In this document: piece by piece, positions 17,561 to 32,812 of the stretch
How the letters are laid out: every line of letters starts with the position of its first letter
Numbering within the stretch: the stretch's first letter is position 1
Source of the DNA: Oscillospiraceae bacterium
GTDB taxonomy: Bacteria > Bacillota > Clostridia > Saccharofermentanales > Saccharofermentanaceae
Direction: 5' to 3'
DNA length: 64,000 nt
Assembly (NCBI GenBank): GCA_902780785.1
Contig: CACZGS010000010.1
Span: forward strand, 44,363 to 108,362
The notes under the pieces: generated by a model
What the model was told of the DNA's origin: nothing
The model's database searches: none
What the model saw: only the letters and a program-made list of their open reading frames with translations
Position numbers and translations under genes: made by a program

Positions 17561-19417
17561 TTATACATCCTTTACCATGCTGAGGATCGCGGGGCGTATC
17601 CAGCGGTAATCGTTCTGATCGTAGTAGGTGCAGCATTCGTTTGTAAAATCGACTCTTATGATATCTCCTGAAGCATCCTTAAAATCGATGTATTCGACTT
17701 CATTGACCGCTACGGGTGTTATCAGATCGTCAGTCTTGATCTTCTTTGTCTCATCTGTGACCTTTCCGTCTCTTACGATCTTACCTTCCATGTCTCTTGC
17801 TGCTCTGAAAGTCGTTGACCATTCGAACTGACTGTAATTGTCAGCAGGGATCGCAAGTCCGTTCTTTGCTACCTTATAGTTTCTCGTGATAAGGAAAGGA
17901 TAATTATTTCCGTAATCCTCATAGCAGGAGAAAGACTTTGTGTCCTTTAATGTCCTAATAAGAAGGTTCTCAACCGTACCAACGTACTTTACCGAATCAT
18001 CAGTCAATTCATAAACATTCAGATCGCAGCCTCCGACAGGCTTTCTGACAGTAGTTACATAGATATATGCTTTGCCGTTTGCCTTAAGAAGATATGCGCT
18101 GCTCAAGGCATAACCGGAATCACCGTACTTTATATTGAGATCAAAGCTCTTTTTGCCGTTTGTGATCCTGAGCATATTATTGCCGAGTGTCTCGACACAC
18201 AATTTTCCATAGCATCCTTCTGCCCAGAAGCATTTGCTGCCGTCATTGAACTTCTCAATATAACCTTCAGACAGGTAATTAACTGAAGCTTTGAACTGGC
18301 TTACTTCAACTAACATGCTGCGGAGGGCCGTATAGATCCAGCGGTAATTGTTCTGATCGTAGTATTTGCAGCATTCATCAGTGAAATCCACTCTGATGGT
18401 GTTTTTATTGGCATCCTTGAGATCAATGTATTCAACTTCGTTGAGCCATGTGGGAGTAACACTTTCACCGGCCTTGATCGTCATCTTGGTATTTGTCTTT
18501 TTGCCGTTTGATACGAGATATCCTGACAGATCCCTGGCTGCGACAACCCTTACAGATCCGATATAGCTCATATTGTCTGCAGGTACGGGGAGTCCGTCTT
18601 TGCCGATCTTAAACTGCCTTTCGCTGCAGAACATTGCGCCGTCTGCATCGTATCCCTTGAAATTCTTCGTGTTGTCTATAGAAGGAGATACCGTGAAGTT
18701 TGTAAGGACAGTCATGCATGAGATGGAGTTCTCTTTTATCTCATATATATTTGTTTCGTTGTTGTTATTGCCGCGTACAACATCTACATAAAGATATGTC
18801 TTGTCGTTTTCCTTGATCAGATATGCGTAGGATACTCTTTCTGAACTGATACTGACCTGCCATAACTTGTTTCCTTCTGTCTCATAGCGGAGCGTGCCTG
18901 CGTTTACCGTGAAAGATACTTCGCCGTAATCACCTGATACCTTGTACTCTTTAACGTTGTCCTTGATATCAAAATGAATTACTGTTCCGTTCTTGATCTT
19001 CGAAAAGTCCCTCTTCTTACTGTCGTTTACCGGTACGGGAGTTGCTGTCGCCGGTGCCTTGGTAGGAGCTGCTGTTGTCTCTGCTGCAGTAGGTTCGGTA
19101 ACTTCGGGCTCTTCCGTTTCCTTGCTCTCTTCAGGTACGGATACTGAAGGTGTTATATCCGTATCAAAATCATCAGCCGGTAATTGGATAGCAGGATCTG
19201 TAATTACGTCTGCATTTACGCCCTGCTGATTGATCGATATACCCGAAGCCAGCGCTTCGTCATTGATCACTACTGTTCCTACAGGAGTTCCGTCTGCCAT
19301 CTTGATCTCTGCCGTGCAGCCGGAAGCCGTAACTGCGAGTGCGCCTGTAAGGATAACCGTTGCAAGTGCCGATCCTGTAATTCTGCCTCTCTTAATAGGG
19401 TTTGCTATAAACTTCAT
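17561..19417 (-). CDS. Lipoprotein L1 with two tandem copies of an unassigned ~230-aa domain (paralog of L2 and of the BlaR1-like sensor domain)
   Basis: I set the start at ATG 19417 (MKFIANPIKRGRITGS...) behind GGAGG. Signal peptide with lipobox VTASGC. Two repeats end ...EVEYIDLKDANKNTIRVDFTDECCKYYDQNNYRWIYTALRSM and ...EVEYIDFKDASGDIIRVDFTNECCTYYDQNDYRWIRPAILSM. Confidence 0.85.
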   Translation of the reverse strand: MKFIANPIKRGRITGSALATVILTGALAVTASGCTAEIKMADGTPVGTVVINDEALASGISINQQGVNADVITDPAIQLPADDFDTDITPSVSVPEESKETEEPEVTEPTAAETTAAPTKAPATATPVPVNDSKKRDFSKIKNGTVIHFDIKDNVKEYKVSGDYGEVSFTVNAGTLRYETEGNKLWQVSISSERVSYAYLIKENDKTYLYVDVVRGNNNNETNIYEIKENSISCMTVLTNFTVSPSIDNTKNFKGYDADGAMFCSERQFKIGKDGLPVPADNMSYIGSVRVVAARDLSGYLVSNGKKTNTKMTIKAGESVTPTWLNEVEYIDLKDANKNTIRVDFTDECCKYYDQNNYRWIYTALRSMLVEVSQFKASVNYLSEGYIEKFNDGSKCFWAEGCYGKLCVETLGNNMLRITNGKKSFDLNIKYGDSGYALSSAYLLKANGKAYIYVTTVRKPVGGCDLNVYELTDDSVKYVGTVENLLIRTLKDTKSFSCYEDYGNNYPFLITRNYKVAKNGLAIPADNYSQFEWSTTFRAARDMEGKIVRDGKVTDETKKIKTDDLITPVAVNEVEYIDFKDASGDIIRVDFTNECCTYYDQNDYRWIRPAILSMVKDV

Positions 19418-19547
19418 TTTTAATTTCCTCCGTATGATAACAGTTGTTCTACAGGCGTAGATTCTACAAACGTAGAACAACCTTACGAGCGTCATTCTAC
19501 ATTTGTAGAAAACGGATGTCAATAGTTTTTTCTACATTTGTAGAATT
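19379..19547 (-). repeat. Copy 1 of a near-identical ~170-bp promoter/leader/signal-peptide cassette (partner at 29597-29765)
   Basis: Base-by-base comparison with 29597-29765 shows 2 mismatches (CTACAGGCG versus CTATAGACG). Identity falls to about 75-85 percent further into the coding region, down to about 19230 and 29447. Confidence 0.9.
19462..19545 (-). promoter_or_regulatory. L1 promoter with three BlaI/MecI/CopY-type operators
   Basis: The minus strand reads TTCTACAAATGTAGAA-N7-TTGACA-17 nt-TAGAAT. Operators lie at 19530-19545 (upstream of -35), 19495-19510 (overlapping the spacer and -10) and 19462-19477 (in the leader). Each is a perfect 16-bp palindrome with a TACAnnnnTGTA core. Confidence 0.75.
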
Positions 19548-19564
19548 TATTTAAAACCCGGGAA

Positions 19565-19597
19565 TCAAAAAGGCGCTGCCTTTTGGAGCAACGCCTA
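19565..19597 (-). terminator. Terminator after the pilus operon
   Basis: The minus-strand hairpin AGGCGTTGC...GCAGCGCCT is followed by TTTTTG. Confidence 0.6.
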
Positions 19598-19621
19598 ACT
19601 GAGTCTATATAACCGTCGGTA

Positions 19622-20239
19622 TCAAGCTTTTCTGCATCTGACTGTAAGACGGCTTTTACCGCCATAGGTACAGGTATAAAGCGAGAGATCCCAGTCACCC
19701 GTTATCATCTCTTCAACAGCCGTGCCGTCCAGCACTTCTATTACTTCCACGATATATCTCGTTACCCTTCCGTTCATGTCGGTAAAGAACACCTTGTCTC
19801 CGGGAGACAGCTTCTTCAGTTTCCCGAACCCGCTTTTGTAATTGTGTCCTGCAATCACCAGATCATCAGTATATGGAGATCCGTAGTAACGGCATGCCGA
19901 CTTTCTGAGATAGTCATCATTCCATGTATCAAAGACCGCCATTTCAAGTTCGATTGCGGGGACGGTAAGATATCCGTCATAAGGGCAGTCATCGATCACT
20001 GCAACTTCCAGTTCAGAATCATAAAGAGCAGGAGACCTGCTGCCGTCCGTGTCGTTTACGGGATCATCTGCGGTCCTTTGCGAGATCTCAGCCTTAATAT
20101 CTTCTACGATCATCCCCGTTTCTTTCTTCAGATTGTTGCTGAGCACCATGTTTGTAACAATAAGAATAACAGCTCCGCCTATAAGGACAGAGCCGGTTAT
20201 AAGAAATATGTTTCCGATTGTACGGTGCTTATTTTTCAT
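19622..20239 (-). CDS. Small sortase (single N-terminal TM; housekeeping/class-D-like) at the end of the pilus operon
   Basis: 205 aa with the catalytic triad context IAGHNY (His), LYTCTYGG (Cys) and RLTVRC (Arg). It overlaps the upstream gene by 11 nt. Confidence 0.85.
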   Translation of the reverse strand: MKNKHRTIGNIFLITGSVLIGGAVILIVTNMVLSNNLKKETGMIVEDIKAEISQRTADDPVNDTDGSRSPALYDSELEVAVIDDCPYDGYLTVPAIELEMAVFDTWNDDYLRKSACRYYGSPYTDDLVIAGHNYKSGFGKLKKLSPGDKVFFTDMNGRVTRYIVEVIEVLDGTAVEEMITGDWDLSLYTCTYGGKSRLTVRCRKA

Positions 20240-21131
20240 CTGCTTTTCTGCCGGTCAGCCTGATCACTATTCCTGCACTCACCAGGAACGAACCGGAAAA
20301 CAGGAGTACCGGAACAGGCCAGTCGATCTGTCCCGTCTGGATGAGTTTCTCTGTATTTGTCACCGTAAATTCGTATCCTTCGGAAGAATATGTTGCCGTA
20401 TAGTTCTTTGGAATATCTGTCTCTTCGACAGACCACTTTTTGCTTGCATCAAGCTTTTCCCATGTATGCTTCCATGAGTTTTGTCCGCTGAGCCTTACCG
20501 TATCATAGATGCCGTCTTCATTAATAAGCCTTACACTTACATAGTCAGGCCGGTTCAGGCCGTTATCGTTCCAGATTTTTTTAACAGAGACATCAACAGG
20601 CGGCAGATATTCGATCTTGGGCTCGGCAACGCCGTCATATATCCAGACCAGTGAATCGTAATCATAGTGCGGAAGGAAATAAAGGAAAGGAACAAAAGAT
20701 GTAAATCCTTCCGGAAGGCTTTTAGCCGTTATCAGATACACTCCTGCCGTAAGCCCGTCGAAAACAACACCGCCATCTTCACCGGATCTTTCAGAGATAC
20801 CGGTGATGTTATTGTTTCCGGCATATTTGACGAGATCGTCCACCATCGACTGGGTAATGTTGTCATCAAGATCCAGTCTTGTCTCGGCAAAATCATCGTC
20901 GAGCACATAATCGATCCCTCTGGATGTAAATGTGGCTTTTGCAATAAGATAAGCCGTTACTTCGGCACCTGCAGCGGTCCTGCCGTTCTCACCGGGTGTC
21001 TTAAGAGTCATTGAAAGGCTTAAGTTTCTGCCGGGATCAGGCTTTTCAGCAGCGAGTACTCTTGCAGGGAAAAAGAAAAGAATCGCAGTCAATAATAGAG
21101 CTGCCCAGGCAGTTTTATTTTTTCTTGCCAT
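20229..21131 (-). CDS. Cna-B-domain minor/basal pilin with a non-canonical sorting signal (LIQTG)
   Basis: 300 aa with a signal peptide (...ARVLAAEK) and a Cna-B-like module VSVKKIWNDNGLNRPDYVSVRLI. The C-terminus reads KLIQTGQIDWPVPVLLFSGSFLVSAGIVIRLTGRK (motif, hydrophobic stretch, basic tail). Confidence 0.8.
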   Translation of the reverse strand: MARKNKTAWAALLLTAILFFFPARVLAAEKPDPGRNLSLSMTLKTPGENGRTAAGAEVTAYLIAKATFTSRGIDYVLDDDFAETRLDLDDNITQSMVDDLVKYAGNNNITGISERSGEDGGVVFDGLTAGVYLITAKSLPEGFTSFVPFLYFLPHYDYDSLVWIYDGVAEPKIEYLPPVDVSVKKIWNDNGLNRPDYVSVRLINEDGIYDTVRLSGQNSWKHTWEKLDASKKWSVEETDIPKNYTATYSSEGYEFTVTNTEKLIQTGQIDWPVPVLLFSGSFLVSAGIVIRLTGRKADEK

Positions 21132-21942
21132 GTTCTTTCCTCCTTTCTGCGATGAACGTGATCACCACTATCGCAATAAATGCCGGCACGGCCATAACAG
21201 TCGCCACAGTAATACTGTTTACCTTAAATGCCTCGCCTGACACGAATATGCCGGGTGAGCTTTTCGCGCTTCCCACTCTGACGCCTCTTACAAGCAGACG
21301 GTGGGTATTGATACCGTAAGGTGTGCAGGTGACAAGTGTGCAGTAATCCTTGCCGTCATCAATGGTCAGATTAGATACATCCTCCGGAAGCACCGTCCTG
21401 ATCTGATCGACTTCGTAAGTCAATACCCTGTCAAGCACGGTGATCCTGAACCTGTCTCCCACTTCCATCTTATCCAGATCCGTAAAGAGCCTTGCCGACG
21501 GAAGACCTCTGTGACCGGACAGGACACAGTGTGTTCCCGGGCCTCCGACCGGAAGCGAAGAGCCTTCGATATGGCCTACGCCTATCTGAAGTACTCCGTC
21601 ATCGACTCCGTGATAGACCGGGAGTTCGACTCCGATCTTATCTATGTCGATATAGCCCATTATTCCGGTGCCGGTTATATTGAGTGTATCGTTATATCCC
21701 GTTACTCCTGACGGATTGAAAAACGAAGCCCTGCCTTCCCTTAAATATTCATTGTACTGTTCGGCAGAAACTATCATCTGCTCGCGCCTTTCTATGTCTG
21801 TGTTGACATAGACCTCGTTGTACCTGGATATTTCGGCCGCAGAATGCTTTGAGTTGATAAAATCGCTGACGGTAGGATAAAGGAGCAGTCCAAGGCCTCC
21901 CGCGATCAGTACAACTATCAAAACATTAAGCAGCTTATTCAT
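21115..21942 (-). CDS. srtC: Class C (pilin-polymerising) sortase
   Basis: 275 aa with N- and C-terminal TM segments. Motifs: VLSGHRGLP (His), TLVTCTPYGINTHRLLVRG (Cys/Arg). Confidence 0.9.
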   Translation of the reverse strand: MNKLLNVLIVVLIAGGLGLLLYPTVSDFINSKHSAAEISRYNEVYVNTDIERREQMIVSAEQYNEYLREGRASFFNPSGVTGYNDTLNITGTGIMGYIDIDKIGVELPVYHGVDDGVLQIGVGHIEGSSLPVGGPGTHCVLSGHRGLPSARLFTDLDKMEVGDRFRITVLDRVLTYEVDQIRTVLPEDVSNLTIDDGKDYCTLVTCTPYGINTHRLLVRGVRVGSAKSSPGIFVSGEAFKVNSITVATVMAVPAFIAIVVITFIAERRKEHGKKK

Positions 21943-21954
21943 ATTCCAAGTTTA

Positions 21955-23697
21955 TTATGCGTTATCAGATCCGGTCTTCTTCTTTATTACGACCAGAGCT
22001 GCACCGGCTGCGAGAAGAGCAGCACCTGCGGCATAGAAACCAACTGTACCGATGCCGCCCGTCTCAGGAAGAGATGAGGTCTTCTTGTTTACGACTTCAA
22101 GGACCACATACTGATCTCCCTGGGCTACTGTTGTGTCAGTGCCGTCGATCTTGTATGTCCATACAGGCTTCTTGTTCGTGCTGTCATAAGCAAATGTGAT
22201 CTCAAGACTGTGAGGTGTCTTGTCTAATGTATAACCGTCAGGTGCCTTAGTCTCCTTGATGGTATAAGTTCCGGCTCCAAGTCCCGTAAGAACAAGCTCA
22301 CCGTTATCATCTACTTCGATAGTTGTATCCGTAGCATCGATATTCTCGACAATAACGCTGTCCCTTTCGACGGGAACATATTTTGTATCTGTCGAATCAT
22401 ACTTATTCTGCGTCTGAGCCGTAGGTGCCGTATCGGTATATGTGCCATCCTTTAACTTGTAGAAAGTACCTGTTGCGCTTACTTCATACTCTGTCTTGGT
22501 TACGATGACCTGCTTGCTCTGAGTTCCTTCAACATGGAATTCTGCTCCGACAAGGGGATTTCCATCCTTATCGATCTTCTTAACCTTGGCACCTGTAGTG
22601 TAAGTTACTGTCTGAATGTCAGGAGACTTACCCGTAACATCACCGTTGCCGGGTTTGTCGCTGGTATATGTGTGTGAAGGGTCATTTGAATAAGTAAGGC
22701 CGGCAGTATTGGGGTTGCCTGCATCAGTTGTTACAGCCTTCTCATTTAGCTTTGCCTTATATGTAACAGTTATATCCTCACCGATATAATCTGTATCCGT
22801 ACCATAATCAAGGAAATCCTTAAATACGATCTCAATGGAATTGGTTGCCGAATCGAATGTGAAATCATAATCACCGGCAGTTAATGTCTTAGAGCCGACC
22901 GTGATAACAGGCTTGTTGTCTGTTGCACTTGTTCCGATGTAATCAAAACCTTCGCTCAAAGTATCGTTCATTACGAAGCAATACTTGTTATAACCCTTAT
23001 CAGTCAGGTCAGGAACCGTAGAAGAGAGCTTAAATGTGATCTCATCGCCTACGCTTGCCTCGTTGTACTTCTGCTCATTGCCTTCGACTACGATATTCTT
23101 ATCCAAAGAAGGTACTACTTCCTTGGTGTTGATCGTAAGGTTTGTTGCCTGGTTTACGACCATGAGCATAAATTTGGACTCTGCACCGTCAACTACGGGC
23201 GAGGATGTTATCTCGTCTTTTACAAGGTAGTATCCGAACCCGGAAGCAAGAGTTACATCTTTCTGTGTATCGGATGCACCAAGCTCTGCTGTCGTAACAC
23301 TTGGATCAGATGATGCGACCGTCTTTCCTGCAATGAATGTCGCGAATCTGTCAACGAGTTCTGTGTCGTTATTGGTGTTAGCTTCCTCCAATACTTCAAG
23401 AAGAGCGTTAAGATCATCGCAGCTGTCAAATCCGTCAACAGCCTTAAGAGCTGTATAGAAAGCCGCATCAGGCTCAGTTACGCCTTCGCCCCATTCAATG
23501 TCATAAAGATCATCATTATCATCAACTTTTACGGAGAAGATCTGATAGAACTCATAACTATGGGCAGACTTATCATTGCTGTCACTCTTTTTGATCGTTA
23601 CTTTGGGATTCTCAGCGGCAAGCGCCATGGTTCCGATCATCATTACCATGACTGTTGCTACGATCGCTGATATCGTTTTTTTCATCAGTTTCATCAT
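21955..23697 (-). CDS. Major (backbone) pilin, LPXTG-anchored
   Basis: I set the start at ATG 23697 (MMKLMKKTISAIV...). Features: pilin-motif-like VVPSLDKN, E-box-like YTIKETKAPDGY, sorting signal LPETGG followed by a hydrophobic stretch and KKKTG. Confidence 0.85.
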   Translation of the reverse strand: MMKLMKKTISAIVATVMVMMIGTMALAAENPKVTIKKSDSNDKSAHSYEFYQIFSVKVDDNDDLYDIEWGEGVTEPDAAFYTALKAVDGFDSCDDLNALLEVLEEANTNNDTELVDRFATFIAGKTVASSDPSVTTAELGASDTQKDVTLASGFGYYLVKDEITSSPVVDGAESKFMLMVVNQATNLTINTKEVVPSLDKNIVVEGNEQKYNEASVGDEITFKLSSTVPDLTDKGYNKYCFVMNDTLSEGFDYIGTSATDNKPVITVGSKTLTAGDYDFTFDSATNSIEIVFKDFLDYGTDTDYIGEDITVTYKAKLNEKAVTTDAGNPNTAGLTYSNDPSHTYTSDKPGNGDVTGKSPDIQTVTYTTGAKVKKIDKDGNPLVGAEFHVEGTQSKQVIVTKTEYEVSATGTFYKLKDGTYTDTAPTAQTQNKYDSTDTKYVPVERDSVIVENIDATDTTIEVDDNGELVLTGLGAGTYTIKETKAPDGYTLDKTPHSLEITFAYDSTNKKPVWTYKIDGTDTTVAQGDQYVVLEVVNKKTSSLPETGGIGTVGFYAAGAALLAAGAALVVIKKKTGSDNA

Positions 23698-23744
23698 TTT
23701 GTTGTTCCTTTCATTTATAATTTTTCTTTTTTTGATTTCATAAT

Positions 23745-26700
23745 TCATTTCGCATATCCGCCTCCTTCGCACCGCCTTTTAATCAGCAGGATAAGTGCGC
23801 CTCCGATCATGAGCGTTCCTGCGGCTATGAACGGAGCTATGCCCGGCCCGCCTGTATTTGGCAGGCTGAAGATAACACTGTTTGTAAACTTAAATGTGTA
23901 GTTGTTGTTAAACTCCTTAACATCAGCCATGAGCATGCCGCCGGTGTTGGGGATCTCCGTTACTTCCACCGTGACATCGTATACGGAGTTGTCGTATCTG
24001 ATTCCCGCCTGGTGATCATCTTTTTCTCTGATATAGAATCTATATATTCCGGGATGATTGAACTGGAGCCTCTCGAAAAGCACCTTTCCCTCTGCGTTAT
24101 TTACTTCAGTGACTACCTTATCAGTATTCCTGTCCACGAGCTCGAAAGTGAAATCCCCGCCACGGAGGACACCGTTTGTAAGTTCCTTCGTAGCACCAAA
24201 CTGCACCGATGCAGTATTGGCATGAACTGTAAAGTCAAGGCCGGAATGGTTAGGACACTTGTTATATGCATCGATTACATATCTCTTATCAAGTTTGAAA
24301 ACCTGGCTGTCAATCCTTTCGACGATATCATCAAGCTCTCCGTCCGTAACCGTTACAACACCGTTTACGGTCTTCGTATATTTGCGGTTCGGATAATCAG
24401 GCGTATATACAACAGTCTCCTCAGCCATGATTTCCCACTCGCCTGTTGTACTGTTGTATTTATACTTTTCGATCTTTGTCGGAGCTATCTGAAGACTGAC
24501 ATCGAAAACAACATGATCAGTATCCTTATAACGGAAATGTTTGTTGTTCGTGATATAGTCATCATGATACTTGGAAGTAAGTTCGTACTGGGAATCTCCC
24601 GGGCCGAATCTCGGATCAGACCAGTAATCATCGGAATCAAAGCCGTTGTCCGGAAGAGGCGTGGCATTTGTGATCTGCCAGTTTTGATCAGACTGGGTCT
24701 CGAAGAACGGCGTGGGATTGCCGTTTTCATCATATATCCTGCAGCTGTTAACGCCCGAAACATATGACTGATACTCGGTAACCGTCTTTATCATTCCGGT
24801 ATCATCGCCAAGTTCAAAACTTACGGAAGTATAAACACCGCCGTCTGCGATCTCGATATCCGCATGATCCAATATCTCATAGTAATCAGTATTCTCATTG
24901 TGATAATCGTAATTTACGACTACGTTTATCCTCTTCATTACCCCGTTTTGCGTCCAAAAACTGACCTGCTGGGTATTATTCCCGCTGGTGTAATTTTCAG
25001 CACGGCAGGTAACGCTCCTTACACCGTATGCTTCTTCGCTCTCATTTTCGAAAGCCGAGAGTAAACCTCTGTCCTGACCGCCTTCGATATAAGGCCAGTC
25101 ATAGTCTTCACCGTATCTGTTGGGAGTTCCTTTAAAGACTATCGTGTCACCGTAATTGACATAAACGGTGTCACCGTCATTATGCTGATCAAAATCAATA
25201 ACATCTGTCTCGCTATCTCTTCTGATTACACGGATCGAGAAATCCTGATCGAGATCCGTGTTGCCACGGTATAAAGATACCGCACAGCTTCCGCCGTTGG
25301 GCTGTGAGGAAATACCGGTTATAGTGGCACGTACTTCGGTAGGAGTGGAGCTTGTCTCATTGATACTTACGACTTCGCCCATCCAGTTTAAATTTTCATA
25401 GAACCTGATATGAAGGTTCTCGCCATTGGCATCTGCCGGATCTATCCTGCCTATAAGTTCTAACGTATCTCCTTCCATCAATACATAAGGGAAATTCGGG
25501 GAATTCTTAATAGTGTCACCTGCAAGATCCGTTTCGGGATTTACGTTGACGGCATTATCAAGATATGCGTGAACTTTGTCTTTGTCTTTTTCACCGGTTG
25601 CGGTAACAACATAGATGGAGAATCCGTCAGTGGTAAATGCAGCTTCCGAAGATGAGACCTCAGCTCCTTCCACTACGGAAACCTTCTGGCCATCGATATG
25701 AAGAAGATCATAGGTCTGACCTTCTGGCTGTCTGGATTCAGGGATCTTTATGCTTACATCAACTGTTGTGCCTTCTGCGGGCTCCACTTTATTGCCTTCA
25801 GCATCAAAAAACGAGATATCAACGGCAACCATGCCCTTGATCTCTTTGCCGTCTCTGACAGTCTGCTCTGCAAGGGCCTTTACCTTGCTGTTTGCAATAT
25901 CAGATGCGTTCATTGTCGTTCCTTCCGGGAACGCACCATAAGGTGCTGACGCATTTACGGTTATTCCTGAACCGGTAACCGCTTCAAATTCCAAAGGATT
26001 CTTAACAGGATCTTCCGGTGCATCCGCTCCGTCCTGTACATCATCCGTATTTTCCGTGCTTTCCGTATTCTCTCCGGCATCTTCAGATACGGCGGGCTCC
26101 GTCTCTTCAGTGGTCTCAGTAGTTTCAGCCGGCTCAGTTGTTTCCTCTGTTTCTTCTGCAGGTTCACTCTCATTTGAATCAAGCCTGTTTACGGAAACAT
26201 AACCATAAAGAACCGCATCGGAGATCCGGTAAGACTTAACGGCTACAACGCCGTCTATATCGCCTTCCATAACACTTATGTCGTTGTCATTAATGTTTAT
26301 TATGATGCCTGTTAAGTCGCACTTGCCGTCCCCGTCATTATCAATAAGGATAAGATCTCCCATCTTGGGCATTACGGTAAAGTCCTTAATAAGAAGTCCT
26401 GCTTCGTCAAGTTTTACCTGCCATGCCCAGCAGCCGGAACCGTAAGGGATATCCTTTTCGGAGATCTTTGAATAGTGCAGGCAGAATGAAACGAACATTA
26501 CATTCCAGTCACCCGTGGGATTTCCGTACCATGCACCGTATCTTGTATATCCGTCCGGTTCTTCTTTGTAATCAAGCTGTGAAGAAGCAGTGTTCACGAG
26601 GCTTTGAGCCTTCTTTGCAACAGGTTTGGGGAGCTTTGACTCCCACTCTGACTGACATTCCTTTTTAGAGACTTCAGCAGGCCTGCAGCTGTCAGTATGG

Positions 26701-26996
26701 GTATGTTCATCAAGACCGCATGTCAATACGCGGTTATAGCAATTCTCATCATGAATATGCTCAGGATCTGTTTCTGAGCATATCAGCTGCTCCTCATAGC
26801 ATTCGTCAGAATGAGTGTGCTCTGAAAGACCGCATGTATATTCATCGGCAAGAGCCACACCGGTATTCCTGAGAGTCCAGAAGACATTGCCTGAAAGTAC
26901 AATGGACACTGCAAGGAACAAAGCCATCGAGCGGTTTCTCGCCTGATGCCTCCTGTTAAGCCAATTTATGTAACCCTCAATACGTTCCTTTTTCAC
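23745..26996 (-). CDS. Large LPXTG-anchored pilus tip adhesin candidate
   Basis: 1083 aa. N-terminal CGL.EHTH.D.C repeats, then a CHAP/NlpC-P60-like segment, an acidic Glu/Thr linker, a C-terminal pilin isopeptide-type domain (FELVDRNTDKVV...YRFYIREKDD), and the sorting signal LPNTGG. Confidence 0.8.
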   Translation of the reverse strand: MKKERIEGYINWLNRRHQARNRSMALFLAVSIVLSGNVFWTLRNTGVALADEYTCGLSEHTHSDECYEEQLICSETDPEHIHDENCYNRVLTCGLDEHTHTDSCRPAEVSKKECQSEWESKLPKPVAKKAQSLVNTASSQLDYKEEPDGYTRYGAWYGNPTGDWNVMFVSFCLHYSKISEKDIPYGSGCWAWQVKLDEAGLLIKDFTVMPKMGDLILIDNDGDGKCDLTGIIININDNDISVMEGDIDGVVAVKSYRISDAVLYGYVSVNRLDSNESEPAEETEETTEPAETTETTEETEPAVSEDAGENTESTENTDDVQDGADAPEDPVKNPLEFEAVTGSGITVNASAPYGAFPEGTTMNASDIANSKVKALAEQTVRDGKEIKGMVAVDISFFDAEGNKVEPAEGTTVDVSIKIPESRQPEGQTYDLLHIDGQKVSVVEGAEVSSSEAAFTTDGFSIYVVTATGEKDKDKVHAYLDNAVNVNPETDLAGDTIKNSPNFPYVLMEGDTLELIGRIDPADANGENLHIRFYENLNWMGEVVSINETSSTPTEVRATITGISSQPNGGSCAVSLYRGNTDLDQDFSIRVIRRDSETDVIDFDQHNDGDTVYVNYGDTIVFKGTPNRYGEDYDWPYIEGGQDRGLLSAFENESEEAYGVRSVTCRAENYTSGNNTQQVSFWTQNGVMKRINVVVNYDYHNENTDYYEILDHADIEIADGGVYTSVSFELGDDTGMIKTVTEYQSYVSGVNSCRIYDENGNPTPFFETQSDQNWQITNATPLPDNGFDSDDYWSDPRFGPGDSQYELTSKYHDDYITNNKHFRYKDTDHVVFDVSLQIAPTKIEKYKYNSTTGEWEIMAEETVVYTPDYPNRKYTKTVNGVVTVTDGELDDIVERIDSQVFKLDKRYVIDAYNKCPNHSGLDFTVHANTASVQFGATKELTNGVLRGGDFTFELVDRNTDKVVTEVNNAEGKVLFERLQFNHPGIYRFYIREKDDHQAGIRYDNSVYDVTVEVTEIPNTGGMLMADVKEFNNNYTFKFTNSVIFSLPNTGGPGIAPFIAAGTLMIGGALILLIKRRCEGGGYAK

Positions 26997-27000
26997 TTTT

Positions 27001-27633
27001 TCATCCCAAAGGCCATACCTTGCCTAATACCTTGCCGACGATCTGATCTTTTTCCACGCATCCGATAACGGAGCTTCTGCTGTCTATGGAAGTATCTCTT
27101 TGGTCTCCCATCACGAAAAATCTTCCTTCAGGAACTGTATAAGGAAAATCAATATCACATTCACCCAGACTCTTTTCGCTTACATAAGGCTCATCTATGA
27201 GTTCGCCGTTAATGTAAACATTTCCCTTTTCATCGATATCCACGGAATCTCCGGAAATGGCGATTACACGTTTAATAAGCAGTTTGTTTTGCCATGCAAC
27301 ACAGCAGAGCTGTCCTGTACGGTAATCGCCGGCATGAAGAAGAACCAGTACGTCGCCGTCAGAAAGCGTCGGCTCCATGCTGTTTCCGGACACCTGGATC
27401 ACCGGCAGAAGATATGTCGACAGTAAAACGGCAACAGCTGCAACTACAGCCAGCAATCCGACTGCAGTAAACGTTGCACGCCTTATCCTTGCGCGTTTTC
27501 TTAGTCTTTTCCGTTCCTCAGTAACTTCTTTCGGATCGAGTCTTTTGCGTGACGGATCTTGTTCATTCATCATGTTATAAACAACATCCACTAACTCTTT
27601 CCGGCTTAAGTTCTTCAGGTTTTCCTTTTTCAT
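27001..27633 (-). CDS. Signal peptidase I (S26), pilus-operon associated
   Basis: 210 aa. GNSMEPTL (catalytic Ser), LIKRVIAISGD (catalytic Lys) and GDQRDTSIDSR are all present. It is the first gene of the pilus operon. Confidence 0.88.
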   Translation of the reverse strand: MKKENLKNLSRKELVDVVYNMMNEQDPSRKRLDPKEVTEERKRLRKRARIRRATFTAVGLLAVVAAVAVLLSTYLLPVIQVSGNSMEPTLSDGDVLVLLHAGDYRTGQLCCVAWQNKLLIKRVIAISGDSVDIDEKGNVYINGELIDEPYVSEKSLGECDIDFPYTVPEGRFFVMGDQRDTSIDSRSSVIGCVEKDQIVGKVLGKVWPLG

Positions 27634-27773
27634 TTCACTCTTCCCGGACAGTCTTCCTGAATATGATATTTTGATTATAGAATCCTGATTTGCCCGAGAT
27701 TTATTACCGTTCGGTTACTGGATAACAATTAATCGACCCTAAATTTCATTCTTGTTATCAATTACGCAGAAAT

Positions 27774-27798
27774 GAAAAAAGCTGTCTGAAACAGCTTT
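27774..27798 (-). terminator. Terminator after lipoprotein L2
   Basis: The minus-strand hairpin AAAGCTGTTTCAGACAGCTTT is followed by TTTTC. Confidence 0.7.
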
Positions 27799-27834
27799 CT
27801 TCCCCCGGTGTTATTTTGTTGCCGGATAATGATC

Positions 27835-29634
27835 TTATAATGGTTCGGCAAGGCTTAACAAAGCCTTATATACCCAGTGATTGTCATTCTCGTCATAGAA
27901 CTCGTTAAGCAAAGGTTCGGAGCTTACTCTGATGACGGTACCTGTAACACTTTCTGTAATATCCGTGTATGTTACTTCGTTAAACTCGGTGAAATTGATC
28001 TGACTGCCGGCCTTGATCGTATACTTCTCGGTTGTTGCTTTTCCGTTCTTGACAACATAACCTGTCAGGTCCTTGGCTGCTTTTACTTTGACGCTTAAAT
28101 TTACATAGCATACTGTATCTGCGATCACCGGCATGCCGTTAGCTGATGCCTTATAGTATCTGGTGATGCCGATCATTCCGTTCATGCCGTCATTCTCATA
28201 GCAAATGAACTTGTCGGCACTTGATGGATTTGATTCAAGATACATGCCTTCATGGTGACCGATAAACTTGATCGAGCTGTCATTTACTTCGTAAACATTG
28301 ATGTCACGAAGATCTCCGTCCATGCAGGATGTTACGTAGATAAATGCCTTGCCGTTGGTCTTAACAAGGTAAGTGCTGCCGATCCTCAATCCTGAATTAT
28401 CAGTGTGTACGGGAAGAACATAAGCATGTCTGTTATACATGATCTGGATCTTCTGACTGTCTATATTATTCTCAACTACAAATGAGCCGTATGCTGATTC
28501 AAGTACACGCTTTTTGGATTCTGCCTGGAAGGTCATTATACGTCCGTTGCCCAACGCTCCAACGGTTCCGGCCTTCTCTTCATCAAAATCCTTGGCGATC
28601 TCGAAAATACTGAAGAAAGCGTTGGTTTTGTTGTTCTTACCGAACATATCAAAGTAATACTTACTGTTAAGTCTGATGACAGTACCGTTTTGTAATGCTA
28701 CATCGATATAATTTTCCATATCTGTTCCGATAAGTCTAACAACATCACCTCTATTGACGGTCTTTAATTCACTGGTTACTTTTCCGTTTCTTACGGCCTG
28801 ACCGCTGTAATCCACCTTGATCCTTGAAGGAGATGTGTTATAAAGGCTGTGCACATTATTTGCAAGCACCGGCATGCCGTTATTACCGACTTTATAATAT
28901 CCGTGCATTACGAACATGTAATTACGTCCGCAATGTTCATAGCAGGAAAACGAATCGATAGATTCAATCGAATCAGTATAAAGATTCTCATAACATCCGA
29001 CATACTTTACGGATTCATCATCAAGAGAATAAACATTGGTCTCGCAAATATCTCCGCCGTGCATTGCGCAGATGTAGAGGTATGCCTGACCGTCTTTCTT
29101 CAACAGGAATGCTTCGCATATTCCGAGTTCAGAGTTCCTGATGGGGAGCTCAAAGCCGTGATCTTCGACCTGGATCCATACTTTTGCTGAAGATTTAGAT
29201 AAGGGATAGAAAAACATATACCCCCAGCCTTCATTATCAGTATATCTTACATCATCGTTGCCTCTTCTTAACTTTAAGACAGAACCGTCCTTAACGGATG
29301 CTATCGCACCGGGCTTCTGAGTTTCATAAGCCTTAGGGGTTGTCACAGGAATATCACTCTCTTGTGTATCTGTTATCTCATCGAAATCATCGTCCGGTAA
29401 AACAACCGTGGGATCAATAATATCATCTGCATTTACACCCTGCTGCTTTACCGTAATGCTTGAAGCAAGCGCTTCATCATTGATAACGACATTTCCGATG
29501 GGGGTTCCGTCTGCCATCTTGATCTCTGCCGTGCATCCGGAAGCCGTGACCGCAATGGCACTTGAAAGGATAACAGCTGCAAGTGCTGATCCGTTGATTC
29601 TGCCTCTCTTAATAGGGTTTGCTATAAACTTCAT
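27835..29634 (-). CDS. Lipoprotein L2, paralog of L1 (two divergent copies of the same ~230-aa domain)
   Basis: The start is at ATG 29634 behind GGAGG. The N-terminal ~60 aa are nearly identical to L1 (MKFIANPIKRGRINGSALA...TASGCTAEIKMADGTPIG). The domain signature is retained (e.g. NVYEVNDSSIKFIG, FICYENDG, YYKASANGMPVIAD, ...YDENDNHWVYKALLSL). Confidence 0.85.
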   Translation of the reverse strand: MKFIANPIKRGRINGSALAAVILSSAIAVTASGCTAEIKMADGTPIGNVVINDEALASSITVKQQGVNADDIIDPTVVLPDDDFDEITDTQESDIPVTTPKAYETQKPGAIASVKDGSVLKLRRGNDDVRYTDNEGWGYMFFYPLSKSSAKVWIQVEDHGFELPIRNSELGICEAFLLKKDGQAYLYICAMHGGDICETNVYSLDDESVKYVGCYENLYTDSIESIDSFSCYEHCGRNYMFVMHGYYKVGNNGMPVLANNVHSLYNTSPSRIKVDYSGQAVRNGKVTSELKTVNRGDVVRLIGTDMENYIDVALQNGTVIRLNSKYYFDMFGKNNKTNAFFSIFEIAKDFDEEKAGTVGALGNGRIMTFQAESKKRVLESAYGSFVVENNIDSQKIQIMYNRHAYVLPVHTDNSGLRIGSTYLVKTNGKAFIYVTSCMDGDLRDINVYEVNDSSIKFIGHHEGMYLESNPSSADKFICYENDGMNGMIGITRYYKASANGMPVIADTVCYVNLSVKVKAAKDLTGYVVKNGKATTEKYTIKAGSQINFTEFNEVTYTDITESVTGTVIRVSSEPLLNEFYDENDNHWVYKALLSLAEPL

Positions 29635-29765
29635 TTTTAATTTCCTCCGTATGATAACAGTTGTTCTATAGACGTAGATTCTACAAACGTAGAACAACCT
29701 TACGAGCGTCATTCTACATTTGTAGAAAACGGATGTCAATAGTTTTTTCTACATTTGTAGAATAT
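29597..29765 (-). repeat. Copy 2 of the ~170-bp promoter/leader cassette (partner at 19379-19547)
   Basis: See copy 1. The two copies are direct repeats 10.2 kb apart that bracket the L2 body and the whole pilus operon. Confidence 0.9.
29679..29762 (-). promoter_or_regulatory. L2 promoter with three BlaI-type operators
   Basis: Same architecture as L1. Operators lie at 29747-29762, 29712-29727 and 29679-29694. The -35 TTGACA is the complement of 29734-29739, and the -10 TAGAAT overlaps the middle operator. Confidence 0.75.
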
Positions 29766-32387: not shown

Positions 32388-32759
32388 TTATTCTTCCGTA
32401 TGCTGTTCGATCATGTCGATAAGACTCTGGGCATCTTCCTTGCTCATCTTCTTGCCGCCGCCTAAGAAAGCATTAACGAACATCGGCAGAGAACCCTTGA
32501 AGTTCTTCTCGACGAGTTCCTCGCTCTGCTGCTTCTGGAGTTCATCGCGTCCTATCAGATATGTGATAGTGGACTTCTCGCTCTGGATAAAGCCCTTATC
32601 CTGGAGTCTTTTGAGCATTGTATAGACCGTGGTCTTCTTCCAGCCGTGGATCATCTCACACATCGTGGATAACTCGCCCGATGCGATCGGTGAATACTCC
32701 CAAATGATCTCCATCAACTTATATTCGCTGTCACCAATAGATGTTTCTTTCATATGCAT
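32388..32759 (-). CDS. blaI: BlaI/MecI/CopY-family winged-helix transcriptional repressor
   Basis: 123 aa. The pattern SEYKLMEIIWE....SGEL......GWKKTTVYTMLKRLQDKGFI matches the penicillinase-repressor family. It lies immediately upstream of the M56 gene. Confidence 0.88.
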   Translation of the reverse strand: MHMKETSIGDSEYKLMEIIWEYSPIASGELSTMCEMIHGWKKTTVYTMLKRLQDKGFIQSEKSTITYLIGRDELQKQQSEELVEKNFKGSLPMFVNAFLGGGKKMSKEDAQSLIDMIEQHTEE

Positions 32760-32783: not shown

Positions 32784-32812
32784 ATTCTACAAGTGTAGAA
32801 TTAAGATGTCAA
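32784..32812 (-). promoter_or_regulatory. Autoregulated blaI promoter with one BlaI operator
   Basis: The minus strand reads TTGACA, a 17-nt spacer, then TAGAAT. The palindrome TTCTACACTTGTAGAA (32785-32800) overlaps the spacer and -10. Confidence 0.7.

What the first reader, a model, noticed from the sequence alone, without database searches (positions are those of the whole stretch)
19379..19547. Triple-operator promoter cassette: three perfect 16-bp TTCTACAnnnnTGTAGAA palindromes wrapped around a consensus TTGACA-17-TAGAAT promoter (duplicated at 29597-29765)
Read on the coding (minus) strand, each lipoprotein gene is preceded by operator 1, then 7 nt, then TTGACA. Operator 2 fills the spacer and overlaps the TAGAAT -10. 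Operator 3 lies in the leader inside a 10-bp stem (GTTGTTCTAC...GTAGAACAAC), followed by the GGAGG RBS. The TACA/TGTA core is the established recognition element of BlaI/MecI/CopY repressors. The blaI gene 3 kb away has the same promoter skeleton with one operator over its -10 (32785-32800). Three phased operators imply very tight, probably cooperative repression of both lipoprotein genes. The 170-bp cassettes differ at only 2 positions while the coding bodies are strongly diverged.
Basis: partly seen in the sequence, partly recalled or inferred. Interest (0 to 1): 0.65.

Follow-up and report, generated by a model that had tools for sequence, protein, structure and literature searches.

The report
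Repressor-site array before rumen lipoprotein genes
Two surface-lipoprotein genes of a rumen bacterium sit behind near-identical strong promoters packed with three to four binding sites for a penicillinase-repressor-type protein; the layout is conserved across related species, so the switch looks real, but what it senses is unknown.

Summary
The site is 16 bp, TTCTAC-N4-GTAGAA (O1 and O2 = TTCTACA-AA-TGTAGAA). The 18-bp pattern as written has no match.

- **Layout.** Each cassette has O1, then 7 nt, then TTGACA-17-TAGAAT with O2 over the -10, then O3 in the leader. A fourth degenerate site (O4) abuts O3. One more site covers the -10 of the adjacent blaI-like gene.
- **Rarity.** The genome holds eight perfect sites: these seven, plus one upstream of a small membrane-protein gene.
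- **Conservation.** Arms and spacing (35/33/15 bp) are kept in eight congeneric species, while the regulated lipoproteins drop to 30-43% identity.
- **Co-occurrence.** Four complete congeners without the system have no perfect site.
- **Specificity.** Each of the other six repressor paralogues has its own, different promoter repeat or palindrome.
- **Best reading.** A BlaI/MecI/CopY-family repressor blocks these promoters, and a BlaR1-like M56 protease relieves it.
- **The sensor is atypical.** Its C-terminal domain is not penicillin-binding. It is one copy of the unassigned all-beta domain that occurs twice in each regulated lipoprotein.
- **Not shown.** Binding, transcription start, cooperativity and the inducing signal remain untested.

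Multi-operator BlaI/CopY promoters are already known, so this is a new variant of a known kind.

The parts
19530..19545 (-). Cassette 1, operator O1 (TTCTACAAATGTAGAA). It lies upstream of the -35, followed by the A-rich 7 nt AAAACTA.
   Evidence: Invariant in 9 promoters from 8 species.
19494..19522 (-). Cassette 1 promoter: TTGACA (19522-19517), 17-nt spacer, TAGAAT (19499-19494).
   Evidence: 11 of 12 consensus matches. Both hexamers are invariant across species. The transcription start was not mapped.
19495..19510 (-). Cassette 1, operator O2 (TTCTACAAATGTAGAA). It fills the spacer and overlaps the -10.
   Evidence: Arms are invariant; the centre varies (AAAT, AAGT, AATT).
19462..19477 (-). 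Cassette 1, operator O3 (TTCTACGTTTGTAGAA), in the transcribed leader at about +10 to +25 of the inferred start.
   Evidence: Arms are invariant. The centre is inverted (AAAC) in G025, as expected for a DNA palindrome.
19447..19462 (-). Cassette 1, degenerate fourth site O4 (ATCTACGCCTGTAGAA, 1 mismatch). It shares one base with O3.
   Evidence: Present in 7 of 9 aligned promoters and absent in G007 and G025.
19443..19481 (-). Leader RNA hairpin: outer stem GUUGUUCUAC/GUAGAACAAC enclosing O3/O4.
   Evidence: -19 kcal/mol, z = -3.5; 98% of cells paired, and the outer stem varies only by G-U wobble. No Rfam match.
17561..19417 (-). Lipoprotein L1 (618 aa). It has a signal peptide with a lipobox Cys at residue 34, a conserved low-confidence (pLDDT below 50) N-terminal region of about 100 aa, and two copies of an unassigned ~240-aa all-beta domain.
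29747..29762 (-). Cassette 2, operator O1'.
29711..29739 (-). Cassette 2 promoter TTGACA-17-TAGAAT, with O2' (29712-29727) inside it.
29664..29694 (-). Cassette 2, O3' (29679-29694) and degenerate O4' (29664-29679, 2 mismatches).
27835..29634 (-). Lipoprotein L2 (599 aa), a paralogue of L1. It is 35% identical overall but near-identical over the first ~60 residues.
32784..32812 (-). Promoter of the blaI-like/M56 operon: TTGACA-17-TAGAAT with a single operator, TTCTACACTTGTAGAA (32785-32800), over the -10.
   Evidence: Conserved in all relatives about 3 kb upstream of the array.
32388..32759 (-). BlaI/MecI/CopY-family repressor (123 aa, PF03965).
   Evidence: The recognition helix is identical in six species.
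29843..32362 (-). BlaR1-like M56 membrane protease (839 aa). HEWTH is at residue 208 (31727-31741). The C-terminal 247 aa (29846-30586) are one copy of the lipoprotein domain.
19622..27633 (-). Six-gene sortase-pilus operon lying between the two cassettes. It is not part of the regulon by sequence and is absent from this locus in the seven relatives whose loci were mapped.
   Evidence: There is no operator in it, and a terminator-like hairpin follows L2.

Best explanation
The palindromes are operators of the locally encoded BlaI/MecI/CopY-family repressor (32388-32759). Dimers sit at four places:
- O1, next to the -35, over the A-rich stretch where an UP element would lie;
- O2, across the spacer and the -10;
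- O3, at about +10 to +25 of the inferred transcription start;
- possibly the weaker O4.

A near-consensus promoter in front of each lipoprotein gene is therefore kept off. A single site over the -10 of the repressor's own operon gives negative autoregulation.

The co-transcribed M56 membrane metalloprotease (HEWTH motif) is the signal transducer. When its extracellular part is triggered, the repressor is inactivated, presumably by cleavage as in BlaR1/BlaI. Three things then come on together: the lipoproteins, a small 4-TM protein encoded elsewhere in the genome, and the blaI-M56 operon itself.

The sensor's C-terminal domain is a paralogue of the domain repeated in the regulated lipoproteins. 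Sensor and product therefore probably recognise the same unknown ligand, or each other.

Once transcribed, the O3/O4 palindromes fold into a 5' hairpin that probably stabilises the mRNA.

**Shown by sequence:** sites, positions, conservation, regulon restriction, domain paralogy.

**Inferred:** binding, repression, proteolytic induction, role of the hairpin, nature of the signal.
For: **Regulator and sites**
- Regulator family: PF03965 at 80.6 bits. MecI and BlaI are the nearest solved structures. There is no C-terminal Cys motif, so it is not a CopY-type metal sensor.
- Site type: a TACA-NN-TGTA core and 16-bp size, as in the refined CopY operator.
- Autoregulatory site over its own -10.

**Regulon restriction**
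- The genome has 8 perfect sites: 7 at this locus and 1 upstream of a 146-aa membrane-protein gene. The orthologues of that gene in G005 and G021 keep a site.
- Eight of 8 genomes with the system have 4-9 perfect sites. Four of 4 complete congeners without it have none.

**Conservation**
- Footprint: arms, -35, -10 and the 35/33/15-bp spacing are kept in all but one of the promoters compared (G035 has a 35-bp deletion; G008b one extra A). The N4 centres and the bases between the -35 and O2 vary.
- The O1/-35/O2 core is also kept in a distant metagenomic locus and in 18 metagenome instances. Where a downstream gene could be read in those instances, it encodes a lipoprotein with the same N-terminal module.
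- The repressor's recognition helix is identical in six species, while M56 ectodomains fall to 21-54% identity.

**Specificity and partner**
- Each of the other six PF03965 paralogues has a different repeat or palindrome in its own promoter.
- The M56 partner carries HEWTH and a BlaR1-like arrangement of hydrophobic segments.
- Sensor/lipoprotein domain homology.

**Precedent**
- Multi-operator promoters are known in this family: B. licheniformis OP1-3, two CopY operators, and ordered double sites in C. thermocellum.
Against: - No experiment of any kind supports binding or repression.
- The transcription start is not mapped. Rumen metatranscriptome contigs contain the gene but run across the promoter, at depths similar to blaI and M56. 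They neither show a start nor show tight repression, and may include DNA.
- The BlaI/MecI scissile Asn-Phe is not strictly conserved; the aligned segment reads V-N-A-F.
- Operator spacings are not whole helical turns, so cooperative binding is not implied.
- O4 is degenerate and is absent in two species.
- The genome has seven paralogous repressors, so cross-talk cannot be excluded.
Confidence: 0.8

Rival explanations
1. Only O1 and O2 (and the blaI site) work as operators. The O3/O4 palindromes exist mainly for the RNA: they build a stable 5' leader hairpin that protects the mRNA or modulates translation, and repressor binding there is incidental.
For: - The leader folds at -19 kcal/mol, z = -3.5.
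- The outer stem lies outside the operator arms and varies at 5 pairs. Pairing is always kept, and only through G-U wobble, which matters only in RNA of this strand.
- A distant locus has O1 and O2 but no O3.
- O4 is degenerate.
Against: - The O3 arms are identical to those of O1, O2 and the blaI site in every species.
- This includes G007 and G025, which lack O4 and the extended stem. In G025 the O3 centre is inverted, which is neutral for a DNA palindrome.
- No double compensatory change supports the stem, and there is no Rfam family.
- The two roles are not exclusive.
Confidence: 0.2
2. The sites are bound by a different regulator: one of the six other Penicillinase_R paralogues, or an unrelated protein. 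The neighbouring blaI-like gene is then only co-located.
For: The genome encodes seven PF03965 proteins.
Against: - Each other paralogue carries its own distinct repeat or palindrome in its own promoter: GACTAT-type, GTTTAYAAG-type or GTC[TCG]ACC-type.
- TTCTAC-N4-GTAGAA covers the -10 of this gene only.
- Sites and system are present or absent together across 12 genomes.
Confidence: 0.04
3. The repeated palindromes and the duplicated cassette are recombination substrates (mobile-element ends or sites for cassette exchange), not transcriptional operators.
For: - The two cassettes are direct repeats 10.2 kb apart that bracket L2 plus a pilus operon absent from this locus in relatives.
- They are more alike (2 differences) than cassette 1 is to its orthologues (9-12 differences), which suggests gene conversion.
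- Lipoprotein bodies and sensor domains are mosaic between species.
Against: - No recombinase or transposase gene was seen among the genes annotated at the locus.
- There is no match in phage or plasmid collections.
- The palindromes sit at fixed positions relative to the -35 and -10 in single-copy loci too.
- Homologous recombination through the conserved cassette explains the mosaicism without any special site.
Confidence: 0.03

Closest known systems
BlaI/BlaR1 of Bacillus licheniformis and Staphylococcus aureus (and MecI/MecR1)
   Same: - Winged-helix PF03965 repressor next to an M56 membrane metalloprotease.
- Palindromic operators with a TACA/TGTA core.
- Autoregulated repressor-sensor operon.
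- Several operators per control region: three (OP1-OP3) in B. licheniformis (PMC3305447).
- The sensor ectodomain is related to the class of protein being regulated (from established knowledge of BlaR1/MecR1 and PBPs).
   Different: - The sensor has no penicillin-binding domain. It scores 87.5 bits against a cut-off of 400 for the BlaR1 model.
- Its ectodomain is an unassigned all-beta domain.
- The regulated genes are lipoproteins of unknown function, not a beta-lactamase or PBP.
- The genes are co-directional rather than a divergon.
- Three to four operators are packed around one unidirectional promoter.
- The Asn-Phe cleavage site is not strictly kept.
CopY/CopR cop-box operators of streptococci, enterococci and lactococci
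   Same: - 16-bp operator built on TACANNTGTA.
- The pneumococcal site ATTGACAAATGTAGAT is close to TTCTACAAATGTAGAA.
- Two operators per promoter, proposed to block the -35 and to occlude polymerase (PMC7253601).
   Different: - The repressor here lacks the C-terminal Cys-X-Cys metal site and scores below the CopY_TcrY cut-off (49 vs 122 bits).
- Its partner is an M56 protease, not copper.
- There are no copper-export genes in the regulon.
BlaI-family regulons of Clostridium thermocellum (DAP-seq)
   Same: Clostridial BlaI paralogues with very small, self-regulated regulons and ordered multiple sites per promoter, paired with BlaR1-like genes and hypothetical proteins (PMC8457756).
   Different: - A different motif (GTCTAT/GACTAT-type). 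That motif resembles the one at another paralogue of this genome, not this site.
- No sensor/product domain paralogy is described there.
Atypical BlaIR system PvmSR of Pseudomonas aeruginosa (bioRxiv 10.64898/2026.08.03.742534)
   Same: A BlaI/BlaR-type pair that does not control beta-lactam resistance.
   Different: - Gram-negative host and a virulence phenotype.
- I did not compare its operator or sensor domain.

Membership tests
BlaI/MecI/CopY (Penicillinase_R) repressor-operator systems | Regulator with the PF03965 winged-helix domain | tested here: met
   E = 1.4e-22, 80.6 bits against a cut-off of 22.6. MecI and BlaI are the best solved relatives.
BlaI/MecI/CopY (Penicillinase_R) repressor-operator systems | Inverted-repeat operator with a TACA/TGTA core, about 16 bp | tested here: met
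   Fourteen of 16 positions match RNYKACANNYGTMRNY; only the outermost positions differ.
BlaI/MecI/CopY (Penicillinase_R) repressor-operator systems | Operator in the repressor's own promoter (autoregulation) | tested here: met
   the site at 32785-32800 overlaps the -10. It is conserved in all relatives. This rests on sequence position only.
BlaI/MecI/CopY (Penicillinase_R) repressor-operator systems | The protein binds the operator and represses transcription | not testable with these tools
   Needs EMSA or footprinting and reporter assays.
BlaR1/MecR1-type signal transduction | Adjacent M56 membrane metalloprotease with HExxH | tested here: met
   PF05569, 142 bits. HEWTH at residue 208, with five hydrophobic segments before the ectodomain.
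BlaR1/MecR1-type signal transduction | Extracellular penicillin-binding (transpeptidase-like) sensor domain | tested here: not met
   no such domain, and 87.5 bits against a cut-off of 400 for blaR1_generic; the C-terminal domain is an all-beta domain with no significant PDB match.
BlaR1/MecR1-type signal transduction | Repressor cleavage at the conserved Asn-Phe in the dimerisation helix | tested here: inconclusive
   the aligned segment reads FVNAF against MecI LVLNF. The Asn is shifted by one residue. Cleavage itself is not testable here.
CopY/CopR copper repressors | C-terminal Cys-X-Cys metal-binding motif | tested here: not met
   there is no cysteine in the C-terminal half; 49.4 bits against a cut-off of 121.95.
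Sigma-70-type promoter | -35 and -10 hexamers at 17-bp spacing, with a transcription start just downstream | tested here: inconclusive
   The hexamers match 11 of 12 and are conserved. The start is not mapped, because the RNA contigs run across the promoter.
Known structured RNA leaders (Rfam) | Match to a curated covariance model | tested here: not met
   no match at E <= 1.

The most novel reading that the evidence does not exclude
The constant module (operators, promoter, signal peptide and N-terminal tether) may be a fixed expression site. Hypervariable all-beta surface domains would be swapped into and out of it by homologous recombination, and the M56 sensor would acquire matching copies of the same domain. 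In G035 and G027 the sensor domain is sister to the second repeat of the cognate lipoprotein type.

The system would then be a self-matching sensor/decoy pair. The sensor detects an extracellular agent (a phage receptor-binding protein, a bacteriocin, a host or plant polymer) through the same domain that the induced lipoprotein then displays in bulk to bind or neutralise it. Sensor and product would co-diversify under an arms race.
Probability: 0.15. Interest if true: 0.7.

Novelty: new variant of a known kind. Interest (0 to 1): 0.42.

Why it matters
**A complete, testable wiring diagram.** The finding covers repressor, operators, promoter, regulon and sensor for one of the many 'BlaR1-like' M56 systems that clearly do not sense beta-lactams. 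It comes from rumen bacteria that are otherwise barely studied.

**A clear hypothesis.** The sensor's ectodomain is a paralogue of the regulated product, so sensor and effector may share a ligand.

**A workable reagent set.** The 16-mers, a 123-aa repressor and a cultured isolate (Ruminococcaceae bacterium AB4001) that carries the system are enough to start looking for the signal.

**A possible tool.** The tightly defined operator/promoter module could serve as a compact repressible promoter for Clostridia.

**A limit on the claim.** As a regulatory principle it is not new: multi-operator BlaI and CopY promoters are already known.

Tried and rejected
- **Literal pattern.** TTCTACANNNNTGTAGAA has no match, so I replaced it with the 16-bp form.
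- **Transcription start from public RNA data.**
  - Rumen metatranscriptomes hold the gene, but only as assembled contigs.
  - These contigs break at the repeat or run across the promoter.
  - Their depths are similar over blaI, M56 and the lipoprotein gene.
  - That gives no 5' end and no statement on repression.
- **Fold assignment of the lipoprotein/sensor domain.** The models are confident (pLDDT above 90 and 94). Only weak, partial beta-propeller-like hits appeared in the PDB (best E = 0.037, TM <= 0.33). BFVD gave nothing significant. The fold is left unassigned.
- **Sensor middle domain.** I tested whether the M56 middle domain is paralogous to the extra 393-aa lipoprotein of locus L042. 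There is no significant similarity, so I rejected the idea.
- **Pilus operon under the same control.** It has no operator, and a terminator-like hairpin follows L2. I treat it as independent; read-through is not excluded.
- **Mobile-element origin.** No phage or plasmid match.
- **Known RNA family.** None.
- **Pfam and NCBIfam for the lipoproteins.** None.
Full report
**1. What is in the sequence**

Read on the minus strand, each lipoprotein gene is preceded by the same module. Coordinates below are for cassette 1.

- An intrinsic terminator of the upstream gene (19596-19571).
- O1, TTCTACAAATGTAGAA (19545-19530).
- Seven A-rich bases, AAAACTA.
- TTGACA (19522-19517), then a 17-nt spacer.
- O2, TTCTACAAATGTAGAA (19510-19495). 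It fills the 3' two-thirds of the spacer, and its right arm supplies most of the -10, TAGAAT (19499-19494).
- Sixteen bases further on, O3, TTCTACGTTTGTAGAA (19477-19462).
- A fourth site sharing one base with O3, ATCTACGCCTGTAGAA (19462-19447; one mismatch).
- GGAGG, then the ATG at 19417.

Cassette 2 is the same at 29762-29634. The blaI-like gene has TTGACA-17-TAGAAT with one site, TTCTACACTTGTAGAA, at 32800-32785.

Its written motif is not: an 18-mer with four Ns has no match. The site is 16 bp, TTCTAC-N4-GTAGAA, and the fourth degenerate site was overlooked.

**2. More than chance**

- The window has seven perfect sites. With up to two mismatches there are ten matches, against 2.5 +/- 1.7 in shuffles; none of 100 shuffles reached ten.
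- The whole 2.84-Mb genome has eight perfect sites. I calculate about 0.17 expected for twelve specified bases.
- The eighth site lies about 70 bp upstream of a 146-aa gene for a four-helix membrane protein on another contig.

**3. Gene context**

All genes below are on the minus strand.

| Gene | Coordinates | Evidence |
|---|---|---|
| Penicillinase_R repressor | 32388-32759 | PF03965, 80.6 bits |
| 839-aa M56 (BlaR1-type) membrane protease, 25 bp downstream | 29843-32362 | PF05569, 142 bits; HEWTH at residue 208 |
| Terminator | 29815-29795 | |
| Cassette 2 and lipoprotein L2 | 27835-29634 | |
| Six-gene sortase-pilus operon | 19622-27633 | preceded by a terminator-like hairpin |
| Terminator | 19596-19571 | |
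| Cassette 1 and lipoprotein L1 | 17561-19417 | |

L1 and L2 have no Pfam or NCBIfam match. They are 35% identical overall but nearly identical over the first ~60 residues.

**4. Comparative evidence that the sites are functional**

The organism belongs to a genus of rumen Clostridia. Related records are titled Saccharofermentans sp., Ruminococcaceae bacterium AB4001, and RUG/RGIG MAGs. Runs holding the sequence are bovine and sheep gut metagenomes.

- **The locus is syntenic in seven congeners.** The order is radical-SAM, decarboxylase, then (divergent) blaI, M56, lipoprotein(s), a 289-aa gene, and an HI0933-like gene.
- **Identity is uneven across the locus.**
  - The immediately flanking genes stay at 83-99% amino-acid identity, and the repressor at 87-98%.
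  - The lipoproteins fall to 30-43%.
  - In the divergent species the M56 ectodomain falls to 21-54%, while its protease part stays at 71-92%.
- **The operator array is kept in almost every promoter compared.**
  - O1, O2 and O3 arms are invariant, as are the -35 and the -10.
  - Spacing is 35, 33 and (where O4 exists) 15 bp. G008b has one extra A, and G035 has a 35-bp deletion that removes the -35 and half of O2.
  - The N4 centres, the five bases between the -35 and O2, and the sequence after O4 all vary.
  - In G025 the centre of O3 is inverted (AAAC instead of GTTT). That is neutral for a DNA palindrome.
- **Sites and system co-occur.** Eight of eight genomes that carry the system have 4-9 perfect sites. 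Four of four complete (99-100%) congeners lacking it have none.
- **The membrane-protein gene is a regulon member.** The site upstream of it is kept with its orthologues (73-75% identity) in G005 and G021.
- **G025 has a further target.** A 294-aa lipoprotein gene there carries two sites.
- **The core reaches beyond the genus sample.** A distant metagenomic locus with a 760-aa M56 protein keeps O1, 7 nt, TTGACA and O2/TAGAAT, but has no O3.
- **Metagenome instances.**
  - An exact scan of JGI metagenomes for the O1/-35/O2 core found 18 instances on 16 stretches.
  - In 14 of them, my simple RBS-based gene call found a downstream lipoprotein gene with the same N-terminal module (MK.I.KPIKKG...TASGC.AEIK.ADG).
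  - In the other four, my call failed or the locus ended. Where complete, the gene bodies are 385-638 aa and variable.

**5. Assignment to the local repressor**

The genome has seven PF03965 paralogues. Each of the other six has its own, different repeat or palindrome overlapping its own promoter: GACTAT-N4-ATAGTC, GTTTAYAAG-type, or GTC[TCG]ACC-type. TTCTAC-N4-GTAGAA is found only at this gene's promoter and its targets.

The recognition-helix segment GWKKTTVYTMLKRLQDKGFI is identical in six species.

The site contains TACA-NN-TGTA. It has the 16-bp size that O'Brien et al. showed to be needed for CopY binding: RNYKACANNYGTMRNY, with the pneumococcal site ATTGACAAATGTAGAT (PMC7253601). It matches that consensus at 14 of 16 positions.

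The protein lacks the CopY Cys-X-Cys motif and is paired with an M56 protease. It is therefore of the BlaI/MecI type, not the CopY type.

**6. Likely mechanism**

The mechanism is inferred from the positions of the sites.

- **The promoter is near consensus.** It matches 11 of 12 hexamer positions, and an A-tract sits where a proximal UP element would lie.
- **Three layers of repression are possible.** O1 would block upstream polymerase contacts. O2 occludes the spacer and the -10. O3, and perhaps O4, would act as a roadblock just downstream of the start. O'Brien et al. propose a similar two-layer logic for the two CopY operators.
- **Precedent exists.** B. licheniformis BlaI uses three operators (PMC3305447). 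C. thermocellum BlaI paralogues use ordered double sites in very small regulons (PMC8457756).
- **Cooperativity is not implied.** Centre-to-centre distances of 35 and 33 bp are 3.3 and 3.1 turns, and O1 to O3 is 68 bp (6.5 turns). 'Phased' is only approximate.
- **Induction presumably follows the BlaR1 paradigm.** An extracellular trigger activates the M56 protease, which inactivates the repressor. This is inference. The MecI/BlaI Asn-Phe scissile pair aligns with V-N-A-F here.

**7. A second layer: the leader RNA**

From the inferred start, the leader folds into a long hairpin of -19 kcal/mol (z = -3.5; none of 200 shuffles folded as well). The outer stem is GUUGUUCUAC/GUAGAACAAC.

Across seven promoters, 98% of cells pair. 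The five outermost pairs lie outside the operator arms. They vary on the 3' side, always by transitions that keep G-U or U-G pairs. That pattern only makes sense in RNA of this strand.

There are no double compensatory changes and only seven related sequences, so this is suggestive and no more. G007 and G025 lack O4 and the extended stem but keep the O3 hairpin. I read O3/O4 as dual-use: operator in DNA and 5' stabilising hairpin in RNA.

**8. What is being regulated and sensed**

- **One domain, five copies.** The C-terminal 247 residues of the M56 protein are one copy of a ~240-aa domain that occurs twice in each lipoprotein. It ends in the block YYD.N.YRW.Y.A.
- **The fold is unassigned.** AlphaFold models are confident (pLDDT above 90 in the lipoprotein domains; 94 for the sensor domain) and all-beta. 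Foldseek finds only weak, partial beta-propeller-like similarities.
- **Sensor domains are not monophyletic.** In a domain tree, those of G035 and G027 are sister to the second repeat of L2-type lipoproteins (support 96/99), and the single repeat of the short G008 lipoprotein groups with the other sensor domains. In G035 the protease part is 92% identical to the window's, but the sensor domain only 26%. Domains have therefore moved between sensor and product.
- **The domain is wider than this genus.** A profile search found 504 representative proteins. They include other M56 proteins and many ~550-aa proteins with PdaC/DUF3298 domains.
- **The lipoprotein family is small.** It has 62 clusters, all unnamed.
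- **The signal remains unknown.** By analogy with BlaR1/MecR1, and from established knowledge of the RsgI-SigI sensors of cellulolytic clostridia, sensor and product plausibly recognise the same ligand.

**9. The duplication**

From O1 to the ATG, the two cassettes differ at 2 of 131 positions. Cassette 1 differs at 12 and 9 positions from its orthologues in G005 and G021, whose lipoproteins are 98% identical to L1. The cassettes have therefore been homogenised within this genome, or one was copied recently.

In G005 and G021 the M56 gene is followed directly by the L1 orthologue. The L2 body plus the pilus operon plus one cassette therefore looks like a ~10.2-kb insertion bracketed by direct repeats.

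**10. Expression data**

Rumen metatranscriptomes contain L1-like sequence. Only assembled contigs are available. They cross the promoter or break at the repeat, with similar depth over blaI, M56 and L1. This shows neither a start site nor repression.

**11. Verdict**

- The interpretation as a BlaI-family operator array is strongly supported by comparative genomics but remains untested at the bench.
- The regulatory principle is known. The packed three-to-four-site unidirectional layout, the dual DNA/RNA use of O3/O4 and, above all, the non-penicillin sensor that is a paralogue of its own regulated lipoproteins make it a new variant of a known kind.

**Earlier notes of this scan**

These notes had already flagged the sensor/lipoprotein paralogy and the direct repeats. 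I had reached the paralogy and the insertion reading from my own calls before reading them, and my cassette-difference count came afterwards.

Noticed in passing
G000 contig C24, locus L008:982-1510 (outside the window): The eighth perfect site in the genome (TTCTACAAATGTAGAA) lies about 70 bp upstream of a 146-aa four-helix membrane-protein gene with no Pfam match. Its orthologues in G005 (L055) and G021 (L058) keep a site, so it is a likely extra regulon member.
   Followed up: partly
window 19379-29765: The two cassettes are direct repeats bracketing L2 plus a six-gene sortase-pilus operon that is absent from this locus in the seven relatives mapped. The cassettes differ at 2 positions, against 9-12 differences to the orthologous cassettes, which suggests gene conversion or a recent insertion.
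   Followed up: partly
window 29846-30586 (M56 C-terminus); loci L035, L036: The M56 sensor domains are mosaic. In G035 the protease part is 92% identical to the window's protein but the sensor domain only 26%. In a domain tree that sensor domain groups with the second repeat of L2-type lipoproteins.
   Followed up: yes
proteins P0111, P0118, P0128, P0140, P0164, P0190: The same all-beta domain occurs at the C-terminus of many ~550-aa proteins carrying PdaC (PF13739) and DUF3298 (PF11738) domains. From memory, RsiV-type anti-sigma receptors carry that pair. It also occurs in other M56 proteins (P0101, P0114). In all, 504 representative clusters match.
   Followed up: no
G000 loci L047-L053: Six further Penicillinase_R paralogues are present, each with its own distinct repeat or palindrome over its own promoter (GACTAT-N4-ATAGTC, GTTTAYAAG-type, GTC[TCG]ACC-type). 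This is a ready-made set for studying operator specificity in the family.
   Followed up: partly
L035 about 6400-6510 (G035): The promoter has a 35-bp deletion that fuses O1 to the -10 (…GTAGAAAAAAGTCTTGTAGAATG…), removing the -35 and half of O2. This may be a natural promoter-down allele or a MAG assembly collapse between the O1 and O2 repeats.
   Followed up: no
L042:3176-6321 and L040: In two more distant species the operator array precedes an extra 393-aa lipoprotein. It has the same N-terminal module and a different body with no Pfam match. The two-domain family member follows it in an apparent operon.
   Followed up: partly
window 17561-19417, residues 35-133 of L1: The ~60 residues after the lipobox Cys (CTAEIKMADGTP.G.VVIN...) are conserved in all regulon lipoproteins, even those with unrelated bodies, yet they are modelled with pLDDT below 50. 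They may be a tether or an interaction motif.
   Followed up: no
G023 contigs C80, C102, C371, C451: One fragmented congener MAG carries at least four separate O1/O2 pairs. This suggests several lipoprotein cassettes in a single genome.
   Followed up: no
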